Source: Escherichia phage vB_EcoS_AKFV33. Taken from it: a stretch of DNA of 64,000 nucleotides. Positions 2,613 to 2,669 of this stretch are shown here, piece by piece. The DNA lies in the sequence record NC_017969.1; one strand, 5' to 3'. The notes under the pieces are model-generated. The model was not told the DNA's origin. It did not search any database and was given only the letters and a program-made list of their open reading frames with translations. Each line of letters starts with the position of its first letter. Positions within the stretch are counted from its first letter, which is position 1. The position numbers were made by a program, and so were the translations under genes.

Positions 2613-2646
2613 ATTATACCAAGTTTTAAGGCACTGAGCAAGTCAA
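2613..2646 (-). promoter_or_regulatory. sigma70-type promoter (TTGACT-17-TATAAT) for downstream tRNA run
   Basis: read on minus strand; -35 lies inside a 13-bp inverted repeat. Confidence 0.5.
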
Positions 2647-2669
2647 ATTTTAAAGAACTTGCTCAGTGC
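2631..2669 (-). terminator. perfect 13-bp inverted repeat hairpin (terminator/operator) overlapping promoter -35
   Basis: GCACTGAGCAAGT-13 nt loop-ACTTGCTCAGTGC; downstream of ORF 2678-2953. Confidence 0.4.

What the first reader, a model, noticed from the sequence alone, without database searches (positions are those of the whole stretch)
2613..2669. Perfect 13-bp inverted repeat overlapping the -35 box of a tRNA-operon promoter
The hairpin can terminate or stabilise the upstream mRNA while its right arm and loop contain the TTGACT -35 element, so hairpin formation or protein binding could gate tRNA expression.
Basis: seen in the sequence. Interest (0 to 1): 0.4.

Follow-up and report, generated by a model that had tools for sequence, protein, structure and literature searches.

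The report
Stem-loop fused to T5 tRNA promoter
In this T5-like phage, a perfect 13-bp hairpin right after a small gene shares its loop and second arm with the already annotated early promoter (T5 "P14a") of a four-tRNA cluster; this is a compact gene-end-plus-promoter junction of a known type, not a demonstrated new switch.

Summary
The inverted repeat is real: arms 2631-2643 and 2657-2669, 13-nt spacer, about 0.03 expected by chance. The window is a T5-like phage, and everything nearby is read on the minus strand. The order there is a 91-aa ORF, 8 nt, the hairpin, a sigma-70 promoter, a ~57-nt leader, then tRNA-Tyr/Glu/Trp/Phe.

The promoter is the one GenBank annotates as P14a in T5, BF23 and phage 5. 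It fits the T5 early-promoter consensus. The family -35 is TTGCTC, 17 nt from TATAAT, inside the 3' arm. The loop is the family's -43 A/T block, so only the 5' arm (-63..-51) is extra.

There is no U-tract and the loop is 11-13 nt, so this is not a canonical terminator. The block is nearly invariant where the adjacent ORF is only 78-83% identical. One lineage shows two compensated pairs with G·U intermediates on the mRNA-sense strand.

Best reading (about 0.5): an RNA hairpin on read-through transcripts that acts as a 3' barrier or weak attenuator, overlapped with the next promoter. This resembles the PeSL cassettes of T4-type phages. Gating of tRNA expression has no support. Interest is low to moderate.

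The parts
2984..3013 (-). Upstream early promoter (homologue of T5 P15c): TTGCCT, 18-nt spacer, TG-TATAAT. It drives the 91-aa ORF and is the source of transcripts that would carry the hairpin.
   Evidence: Promoter scan; annotated P15c at the homologous place in T5, BF23 and phage 5; its -10 and start region closely resemble P14a.
2678..2953 (-). 91-aa ORF of unknown function (T5.072 / 'ORF trn 2.5', phrog_4551); stop codon TAA at 2680-2678.
   Evidence: Found in 532 phage records, including Klebsiella and Vibrio phages at 33-39% identity.
2657..2669 (-). 5' arm of the hairpin (GCACTGAGCAAGT), at about -63..-51 of P14a. It begins 8 nt after the stop codon and is the only part not explained by the promoter consensus.
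   Evidence: It is 13/13 identical in Epseptimavirus relatives whose ORF is 78-83% identical.
2644..2656 (-). Hairpin loop (TCTTTAAAATTTG), which is the -43 A/T-rich block of the promoter (-50..-38).
   Evidence: Alignment with 17 other window promoters, consensus TTTAAAAaTTTA; published T5-like consensus with a -43 'AAAAATT' block (PMC3326045).
2631..2643 (-). 3' arm of the hairpin (ACTTGCTCAGTGC), at promoter positions -37..-25. It holds the -35 hexamer TTGCTC (2641->2636) and the start of the spacer.
   Evidence: TTGCTC is invariant in relatives except for TTGCCC in the compensated lineage.
2641..2646 (-). It is 22 nt from TATAAT and is not conserved.
   Evidence: Coordinates; variants CTGACT, CTTACT and TTGTCT in relatives.
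2612..2621 (-). Extended -10: TGG + TATAAT + A (TATAAT at 2618->2613).
   Evidence: TATAAT is invariant in 25 distinct relatives, while the TG is present in most but not all.
2550..2606 (-). Leader from the inferred start (about 2606, +/-2) to tRNA-Tyr. It contains a long A/U hairpin (2596->2547) that abuts the tRNA 5' end.
   Evidence: The start is inferred by alignment with T5-family promoters. Leader hairpin (I2).
2209..2549 (-). tRNA cluster Tyr(GTA)-Glu(TTC)-Trp(CCA)-Phe(GAA) transcribed from P14a.
   Evidence: ARAGORN; the same order in T5, BF23 and phage 5.

Best explanation
This is a composite gene-end and promoter junction in the variable tRNA region of a T5-like phage.

The DNA from 2656 down to about 2590 (minus strand) is an ordinary T5 early sigma-70 promoter, the homologue of T5 P14a. 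It has a -43 A/T block, -35 TTGCTC, a 17-nt spacer, TG-TATAATA and a TAATTT start region. It fires into tRNA-Tyr/Glu/Trp/Phe.

Thirteen nucleotides placed at -63..-51, 8 nt after the stop codon of the upstream 91-aa ORF, are the exact reverse complement of promoter positions -37..-25. Transcripts started at the upstream promoter (the P15c homologue) that read through the ORF therefore fold a 14-bp hairpin. Its loop and 3' arm are the RNA copy of the next promoter's upstream half.

I infer that this hairpin works at the RNA level on those read-through transcripts. Its main role would be as a barrier to 3'->5' exonucleases. This would matter after the downstream tRNAs have been cut out, leaving the ORF mRNA with an exposed A/U-rich tail. 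At most it is also a weak pause or attenuator. It does not act on transcripts begun at P14a, because they start downstream of it.

Shown: the repeat, the promoter identity, the gene order, the conservation, and the paired substitutions. Inferred: the RNA-level role and low termination efficiency.
For: Identity and layout:
- The window is 98% identical to Tequintavirus genomes.
- T5, BF23 and phage 5 records annotate 'promoter P14a' at the homologous position, upstream of the same four tRNAs.

Promoter family:
- P14a aligns along its length with 17 other window promoters and 10 annotated T5 promoters.
- It matches the published T5-like consensus: TTGCTw, 17-18 bp, TATAATA, a -43 A/T block and a TAAATT start region (PMC3326045).
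- Erwinia phage KEY carries the same 3'-arm-plus-promoter sequence at another gene, with no 5' arm. So the 3' arm is promoter sequence.

Hairpin:
- It is -22.8 kcal/mol.
- It is kept in both the MFE and the centroid fold of the 421-nt read-through transcript.
- It is by far the strongest structure among the upstream regions of 24 promoter-pattern sites. The next is -15.9, and background 59-nt windows average -8.6 (sd 3.9).

Selection:
- The arms and loop are 38-39/39 identical between Tequintavirus and Epseptimavirus. Over the same comparison the ORF is 78-83% identical, and the linker and promoter spacer vary.
- 97.7% of pair cells are standard pairs. Two pairs changed on both sides (C-G to U-A, A-U to G-C) in L004 and L164. 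L005 is an intermediate carrying both as G·U pairs on the mRNA-sense strand, and L164 has a further U·G.
- All variants stay at or below -16.6 kcal/mol in the sense orientation. In the antisense orientation L005 drops to -11.8.

Comparable architecture: PeSL cassettes of T4-type phages combine an early promoter with an overlapping stem-loop in variable regions (PMC2839356).
Against: - There are no transcript data. I found no T5 3'-end or TSS map in the paper library.
- The compensated pairs come from one lineage, so probably one or two events. Quasipalindrome template-switch replication errors can copy one arm onto the other with no selection for structure.
- Transition mismatches at pairs 2 and 12 (C·A, A·C) are wobble-compatible on the antisense strand instead. 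The strand-direction signal is therefore only 3 against 2-3.
- Near-invariance of both arms and the loop is more than an RNA barrier needs. It could also reflect recognition of the DNA sequence, or recombinational homogenisation.
- Pair 2 is broken in 7 of 25 distinct sequences, and phage SE7 has a bulge.
- One relative has lost the hairpin, P14a and the four tRNAs entirely, so the module is dispensable.
Confidence: 0.5

Rival explanations
1. The hairpin is a working intrinsic terminator or attenuator. It insulates P14a from transcription coming from P15c and so prevents promoter occlusion. The stem-loops of T4-type PeSL cassettes are reported to act this way.
For: - The hairpin sits 8 nt after a stop codon and has a G+C-containing 13-14-bp stem of -22.8 kcal/mol.
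- T5's own record annotates a rho-independent terminator overlapping promoter P10a.
- The window has terminator-then-promoter pairs at 4793->4751 and 31894-31967.
- One PeSL stem-loop reduced reporter expression about as much as the rrnB T1 terminator (PMC2839356).
Against: - The tail after the stem is CUUAAAACUUGG, with 2 U in the first 8 nt and 4 in the first 12.
- The loop is 11-13 nt.
- The consensus scan did not call it.
- The clear terminator hairpins in the window carry U-tracts.
- T5's annotators marked other terminators but not this hairpin.
- None of the 60 sampled GenBank records lists a terminator under the match.
Confidence: 0.17
2. The palindrome acts at the DNA level. Either it is an operator for a dimeric phage or host factor, or it extrudes as a cruciform. 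Either way it would hide the -35 and -43 elements and gate P14a and tRNA expression.
For: - Both arms and the loop are almost invariant in primary sequence across two genera, while the flanks diverge.
- As DNA the element folds at -14.6 kcal/mol, z = -6.
- A second perfect repeat (18 bp, also with a 13-nt spacer) is embedded in another early promoter at 12401-12449. It is kept perfect, with different bases, in phage fp01.
- The mechanism of early-gene shut-off in T5 is unknown (PMC7472727).
Against: - The arm centres are 26 bp apart and the arms are 13 bp long, which is unlike usual operators.
- A 13-nt spacer disfavours cruciform extrusion.
- L005 is asymmetric at two positions yet is a sequenced phage genome.
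- The two promoter-embedded palindromes share no sequence, so they cannot bind one common factor.
- Conservation of the loop and 3' arm is already explained by the promoter consensus.
- The neighbouring ORFs have no DNA-binding domain hits.
Confidence: 0.13
3. The repeat has no function of its own. It arose by an inverted duplication or template switch next to a conserved promoter. It persists because the promoter block is a recombination junction that is repeatedly homogenised among T5-like phages.
For: - All four combinations of ORF type (Tequintavirus-like or Epseptimavirus-like) and leader type (short, or with a ~60-nt insert) exist. Crossovers must therefore fall in or next to the invariant block.
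- Deletions and replacements abut the block (L026, L027).
- Template switching can produce compensated arms without selection (established knowledge of quasipalindrome mutagenesis).
Against: - The 5' arm is unchanged where neighbouring non-coding positions (linker, promoter spacer) do vary in the same sequences.
- Every observed variant keeps a stable helix of at least 11-12 bp.
- Two of the three long perfect repeats in 64 kb lie in the ~1.5% of sequence occupied by promoter upstream regions.
Confidence: 0.12
4. The hairpin is an RNase III (or other double-strand-specific) processing site that separates the ORF mRNA from the tRNA precursor.
For: It sits exactly between an mRNA and a tRNA cluster on read-through transcripts. 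The MFE fold stacks about 10 extra weak pairs around the stem.
Against: - The perfect helix is only 14 bp, whereas typical E. coli RNase III substrates have about 20 bp (established knowledge).
- The outer pairing is at chance level, 7 of 13 (I1).
- There is no Rfam match.
- tRNA 5' ends are made by RNase P without such a site.
Confidence: 0.06

Closest known systems
Bacteriophage T5 promoter P14a (GenBank NC_005859 35524-35598; also in BF23 AJ604530 and phage 5 AJ604531)
   Same: It is the homologous sequence. The hairpin-to-start block is identical to T5 except for one loop base. The upstream ORF (T5.072 / trn 2.5) and the downstream tRNA-Tyr/Glu/Trp/Phe are the same.
   Different: Those records annotate only a 75-bp 'promoter' feature. 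The inverted repeat is not annotated, and the feature boundaries differ by 4 nt between records. T5 and BF23 have a ~60-nt longer leader.
PeSL (promoter-early stem-loop) cassettes of T4-type phages (Arbiol et al. 2010, PMC2839356; Comeau et al. 2014, PMC4122927)
   Same: Both combine a strong sigma-70 early promoter with an A/T-rich upstream block and an overlapping stem-loop. Both sit between small ORFs of unknown function in a variable region, and both act as recombination junctions.
   Different: - It is a different phage family (Demerecviridae siphovirus rather than T4-type myovirus).
- PeSL stem-loops are usually G/C runs placed between -35 and -10 or over the -10. Here the stem spans -63..-25 and uses the -35 itself as one arm.
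- The stem-loop part is not a repeated motif in this genome; only the promoter part recurs.
- Terminator activity is untested, and the sequence makes it doubtful.
Canonical intrinsic (rho-independent) terminator placed just upstream of a promoter, such as T5 P10a and window 31894-31967
   Same: A stable hairpin just after a gene end, packed against the next promoter.
   Different: In those cases the hairpin lies upstream of the -43 block and its U-tract doubles as that block. Here the hairpin is shifted about 27 nt downstream, swallows the -43 block and the -35, and has no U-tract.
3' stem-loops that protect bacterial mRNAs against PNPase and RNase II (for example REP-type stabilisers)
   Same: A stable hairpin in a 3' untranslated region with no termination signal of its own. 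The proposed action here is the same.
   Different: It is not a repeated REP-like family and has no sequence relation to one. The protective role is inferred, not measured.

Membership tests
T5-type early sigma-70 promoter | -35 TTGCTw and -10 TATAATA separated by 17-18 bp | tested here: met
   TTGCTC (2641->2636), 17 nt, TATAATA (2618->2612). Consensus from PMC3326045.
T5-type early sigma-70 promoter | A/T-rich block around -43 and an A/T-rich TAAATT-like start region | tested here: met
   TTTAAAATTT at about -48..-39 and CTAATTT at about +1..+7. It aligns with 17 window promoters and 10 annotated T5 promoters.
T5-type early sigma-70 promoter | Demonstrated initiation by E. coli RNA polymerase at this site | not testable with these tools
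   There is only the GenBank annotation 'promoter P14a' in T5, BF23 and phage 5. No TSS data were found.
Intrinsic (rho-independent) terminator | Stable G+C-containing stem directly after a transcription unit | tested here: met
   13 Watson-Crick pairs plus one U·G, 7 G-C pairs, -22.8 kcal/mol, 8 nt after the stop codon.
Intrinsic (rho-independent) terminator | Short loop (about 3-8 nt) | tested here: not met
   The loop is 11-13 nt.
Intrinsic (rho-independent) terminator | U-rich tract immediately 3' of the stem | tested here: not met
   The tail CTTAAAACTTGG has 2 T in the first 8 nt, and the scan did not list it.
PeSL-type composite promoter/stem-loop cassette | Early sigma-70 promoter physically overlapping a stable stem-loop in an intergenic region next to small ORFs of unknown function | tested here: met
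   PeSL description in PMC2839356.
PeSL-type composite promoter/stem-loop cassette | The whole motif (promoter plus stem-loop) is repeated many times in the genome's variable regions | tested here: not met
   The promoter part recurs (24 pattern hits), but the hairpin sequence is unique in the window. Only 2 of 24 promoters carry a long repeat.
PeSL-type composite promoter/stem-loop cassette | Serves as a crossover point for module shuffling | tested here: met
   All four ORF-type by leader-type combinations occur among relatives, and deletions border the block.
PeSL-type composite promoter/stem-loop cassette | The stem-loop terminates or attenuates upstream transcription | not testable with these tools
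   This needs reporter or in vitro assays. The sequence features argue against high efficiency.
Protein operator palindrome | Short half-sites at a helical-phase-compatible spacing, and a cognate DNA-binding regulator | tested here: inconclusive
   The arms are 13 bp with centres 26 bp apart. No DNA-binding domain was found in adjacent ORFs. No factor is known.
RNase III processing site | About 20 bp or more of (near-)continuous double-stranded RNA | tested here: not met
   The helix is 14 bp and the outer extension is at chance level.
Rfam RNA families | Match to a curated covariance model | tested here: not met
   Only sub-threshold chance hits (MIR8675, 17.7 bits against a gathering score of 90.8).

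The most novel reading that the evidence does not exclude
Promoter-embedded perfect palindromes could be a deliberate DNA-level control device of T5-like phages.

Two of the three long perfect inverted repeats in this 64-kb window are built into early promoters. These are 2631-2669 and 12401-12449. Both have 13-nt spacers, and both are kept paired through base changes in relatives.

They could extrude as cruciforms or bind a factor, and so switch particular early promoters. One of these promoters drives tRNA-Tyr, which is reported to counter a retron defence system. Such a switch could respond to upstream transcription, to supercoiling, or to the early-to-late transition, whose mechanism is unknown.
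Probability: 0.1. Interest if true: 0.6.

Novelty: new member of a known kind. Interest (0 to 1): 0.27.

Why it matters
The finding matters mostly for annotation. It corrects the -35 assignment. It shows the hairpin is not a standard terminator. It also documents a PeSL-like stem-loop/promoter junction in a T5-like phage, a group in which I found no description of such cassettes.

The promoter drives tRNA-Tyr. The BF23 paper cites this tRNA as rescuing cells from the tRNA-targeting retron Eco7 (PMC10644984). How this operon is expressed, and how its module is shuffled or lost among phages, therefore has some bearing on phage counter-defence.

If the hairpin proved to act on the DNA, it would offer a handle on the unexplained timing of T5 early transcription. 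Nothing here shows that it does.

Tried and rejected
- Rfam scan of 2500-3050 at E <= 10 gave only chance hits.
- A tighter pattern against metagenomes gave 53 loci. About 7 were T5-like (L159, L162, L164, L169, L187, L191), and they yielded the useful variants L164 and L169.
- Literature searches for T5 TSS or 3'-end maps or a transcriptome found nothing usable. Two searches failed on term syntax.
- I tested whether the repeat extends outward to 26 nt (I1). The outer part matches 7 of 13, which is chance level for this composition, so I rejected it.
- I looked for a divergent plus-strand promoter using the mirrored TTGCTC. There is no -10 at the right distance (TCGAAC), so I rejected it (sequence).
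- I considered plus-strand terminator use. The tail has 4 T in 8 nt and there are no plus-strand genes or convincing promoters nearby, so I rejected it.
- I checked whether distant homologues of the ORF keep a hairpin. In Klebsiella (Sugarlandvirus) and Vibrio (Thalassavirus) phages the ORF is followed directly by another ORF or by a plain promoter. The module is therefore confined to Markadamsvirinae.
- Pfam and PHROGs searches of the four neighbouring small ORFs for a regulator found only families of unknown function.

Full report
**What the window is.** A 1-kb stretch around the finding is 97-98% identical to many T5-like phages (Demerecviridae, Tequintavirus) and matches 450 phage records. 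All genes near the finding lie on the minus strand. Read in that direction, the order is:
- an early promoter (TTGCCT, 18 nt, TG-TATAAT; 3013->2984);
- a 91-aa ORF (2953->2678, stop TAA at 2680-2678);
- 8 nt of linker;
- the hairpin (2669->2631);
- TGG-TATAAT (2621->2613);
- a ~57-nt leader;
- tRNA-Tyr, Glu, Trp and Phe (2549->2209).

**The observation.** The repeat is exactly as described: GCACTGAGCAAGT and ACTTGCTCAGTGC, 13 perfect pairs, 13-nt spacer. On the transcribed strand a U·G pair extends it to 14 bp. The hairpin alone is -22.8 kcal/mol as RNA and -14.6 as DNA, z about -6. About 0.03 such repeats are expected per window from base composition, and 1 of 20 shuffles had one. The real window has three. 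The other two are an all-A/T 18-bp repeat at 12401-12449 and a bidirectional terminator at 47755-47785.

**The promoter.**
- The GenBank records of T5 (NC_005859), BF23 and Salmonella phage 5 annotate 'promoter P14a' at the homologous place. It lies between ORF T5.072 / 'trn 2.5' and the same four tRNAs.
- The sequence from the hairpin to beyond the start site is almost identical in these records.
- P14a aligns over its whole length with ten other annotated T5 promoters and with 17 other promoters in this window. Their consensus is TTTAAAAaTTTAtTTGCTtA.tgC..aAAatTTttgTATAATATaTttATAAATT.
- This agrees with the consensus published for a T5-like phage: -35 TTGCTw, 17-18 bp, TATAATA, an A/T block at -43 and a TAAATT start region (PMC3326045).
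- On this register the -35 is TTGCTC (2641->2636) with a 17-nt spacer.
It is also not conserved: CTGACT in BF23, CTTACT in S113 and SuperGirl, TTGTCT in SE7.

**How the hairpin maps onto the promoter.**
- The loop is the -43 A/T block (-50..-38).
- The 3' arm is promoter positions -37..-25.
- Only the 5' arm (-63..-51) is extra.
- Erwinia phage KEY has the same 3'-arm-plus-promoter sequence in front of a ligase gene, with no complementary 5' arm. This confirms that the 3' arm is promoter sequence onto which a complement has been added upstream.

**Is it a terminator?** On the transcribed strand the stem is followed by CUUAAAACUUGG, with 2 U in the first 8 nt. The loop is 11-13 nt. The consensus scan does not list it. 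The clear terminator hairpins in the window all carry U-tracts: 4793->4762, 10122-10147, 31894-31922 and 47755-47785. T5's annotators marked rho-independent terminators elsewhere, including one overlapping promoter P10a, but not here. None of 60 sampled relatives lists a terminator under this match. Efficient intrinsic termination is therefore unlikely, though weak attenuation cannot be excluded.

**Conservation and covariation.**
- Between this phage and Epseptimavirus relatives the ORF is 78-83% identical. The linker is 8-10/11 and the promoter spacer 8-10/12. The 5' arm is 13/13, the loop 13/13 and the 3' arm 12-13/13.
- I aligned 25 distinct sequences from GenBank, IMG/VR and metagenomes. 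In these, 97.7% of pair cells are standard pairs and 9 of 14 pairs never vary.
- Two pairs changed on both sides in L004 and L164 (C-G to U-A, A-U to G-C). L005 carries both as G·U pairs on the mRNA-sense strand, and L164 has one further U·G.
- Pair 2 is broken in 7 sequences and pair 12 in one. SE7, fetched after that alignment, has a bulge.
- In the sense orientation every variant stays between -16.6 and -26.5 kcal/mol. In the antisense orientation L005 falls to -11.8.

**How far this evidence goes.** It favours a structure selected on the sense RNA, but weakly. The compensations come from one lineage. The terminal mismatches are wobble-compatible on the opposite strand. Template-switch mutation in quasipalindromes can copy one arm onto the other without selection (established knowledge). 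The double constraint, in which the 3' arm is fixed by the promoter and the 5' arm by pairing, would explain the near-invariance without invoking a protein.

**Context.**
- Of 24 promoter-pattern sites in the window, this one has by far the strongest overlapping structure. It is -22.8 against -15.9 for the next, with a background mean of -8.6 and sd 3.9.
- Only two promoters carry long perfect repeats.
- Distant homologues of the ORF in Klebsiella and Vibrio phages lack the hairpin, the promoter and the tRNAs.
- Among close relatives all four combinations of ORF type and leader type occur. Crossovers therefore fall in or beside the invariant block.
- One relative has deleted everything from mid-ORF through the four tRNAs, and another has deleted most of the ORF but kept the block.
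- This behaviour, and the architecture itself, match the PeSL cassettes of T4-type phages. Those are early promoters overlapped by stem-loops, sitting between ORFs of unknown function, and they mediate module shuffling (PMC2839356 and PMC4122927).
- The differences from PeSLs are the phage family, the position of the stem (-63..-25, using the -35 as one arm), the lack of repetition of the stem-loop part, and doubtful terminator strength.

**Mechanism proposed.** Transcripts from the upstream promoter that read through the ORF fold the hairpin, which survives in the MFE and centroid folds of the 421-nt read-through RNA. Once the tRNAs are excised, the ORF mRNA is left with an A/U-rich tail, and the hairpin would stop 3'->5' exonucleases. 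It may also pause or weakly attenuate polymerase. Transcripts begun at P14a start downstream of the hairpin and cannot contain it. An RNA hairpin therefore cannot gate tRNA expression, and only a DNA-level event could. I put about 0.5 on the RNA-barrier/attenuator reading. The rivals are:
- efficient terminator, 0.17;
- DNA-level operator or cruciform, 0.13;
- functionless by-product of palindrome mutagenesis and recombination, 0.12;
- RNase III site, 0.06.

**Verdict.** The promoter is already annotated in T5. The overlapped hairpin is an unannotated example of a known kind of composite junction. Interest is low to moderate.

Noticed in passing
window 12401-12449 (promoter hit 12430->12402, minus strand): A second perfect inverted repeat is built into a T5-type promoter. 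It has 18-bp all-A/T arms and, again, a 13-nt spacer. The spacer holds the -35 TTGCTT and the 3' arm holds the spacer plus TATAAT. A small GCCC-UUCG-GGGC hairpin sits just upstream. Phage fp01 has a perfect 19-bp version with different bases on both arms, while bombadil and Eps7 have one mismatch.
   Followed up: partly
window 2547-2596 (minus strand leader): The leader between P14a and tRNA-Tyr forms a long A/U hairpin ending at the tRNA 5' end. Relatives have two alternative leaders: this short one, and a form with a ~60-nt insert as in T5 and BF23. Both leaders occur with both ORF types.
   Followed up: partly
window 4751-4793 (minus strand): Hairpin AAGCCCTGCG...CGCAGGGCTT is followed by TTCTATATAAT, so a U-tract terminator runs straight into a -10-like TATAAT. 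T5's own P15a at the corresponding place has no hairpin.
   Followed up: partly
window 31894-31967 (plus strand): An ordinary compaction: the T-tract (TTTTTCTTTAT) of terminator AAAGCCAAGAA-TGCCTAG-TTCTTGGCTTT serves as the -43 A/T block of the next T5-type promoter.
   Followed up: no
window 29697-29725 (plus strand): The sequence AAAAATTTATTTGCTTTCAGGAAAATTTTTCTGTATAATAGATTCATAAATTTGAGAGAGG resembles, from my memory, the classic strong T5 promoter PN25/P25 used in expression vectors.
   Followed up: no
L026 (IMGVR_UViG_2974606035) about 1201-1700; L027 (IMGVR_UViG_2974666860) about 1150-1340: These are natural deletion variants. L026 fuses codon ~59 of the ORF to a region far downstream and loses the hairpin, P14a and the Tyr/Glu/Trp/Phe tRNAs. 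L027 deletes most of the ORF, apparently at a GATGAAG/GAAGAAG microhomology, but keeps the hairpin and promoter.
   Followed up: partly
L031 (Erwinia phage KEY, MZ616364) about 1500-1557; window 33114-33142: A promoter upstream of DNA ligase subunit B carries GTTGCTCAGTGCTTAAATACTTGCTATAATAGTTAT. This is nearly the 3' arm plus core of P14a, without any complementary 5' arm. The window's counterpart reads TTGCTAAATGC.
   Followed up: partly
window 47755-47785: A 13-bp perfect G+C-rich hairpin (AAACCCCAGCGGA/TCCGCTGGGGTTT) with A-runs and T-runs on either side. It looks like a bidirectional terminator.
   Followed up: no
window 1293-1375 and 2459-2549: ARAGORN calls an 83-nt tRNA-Asn and a 91-nt tRNA-Tyr. 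T5-family records place a tRNA-like 'RNA3' of unknown function next to tRNA-Asn. I did not check whether RNA3 is present in the window.
   Followed up: no
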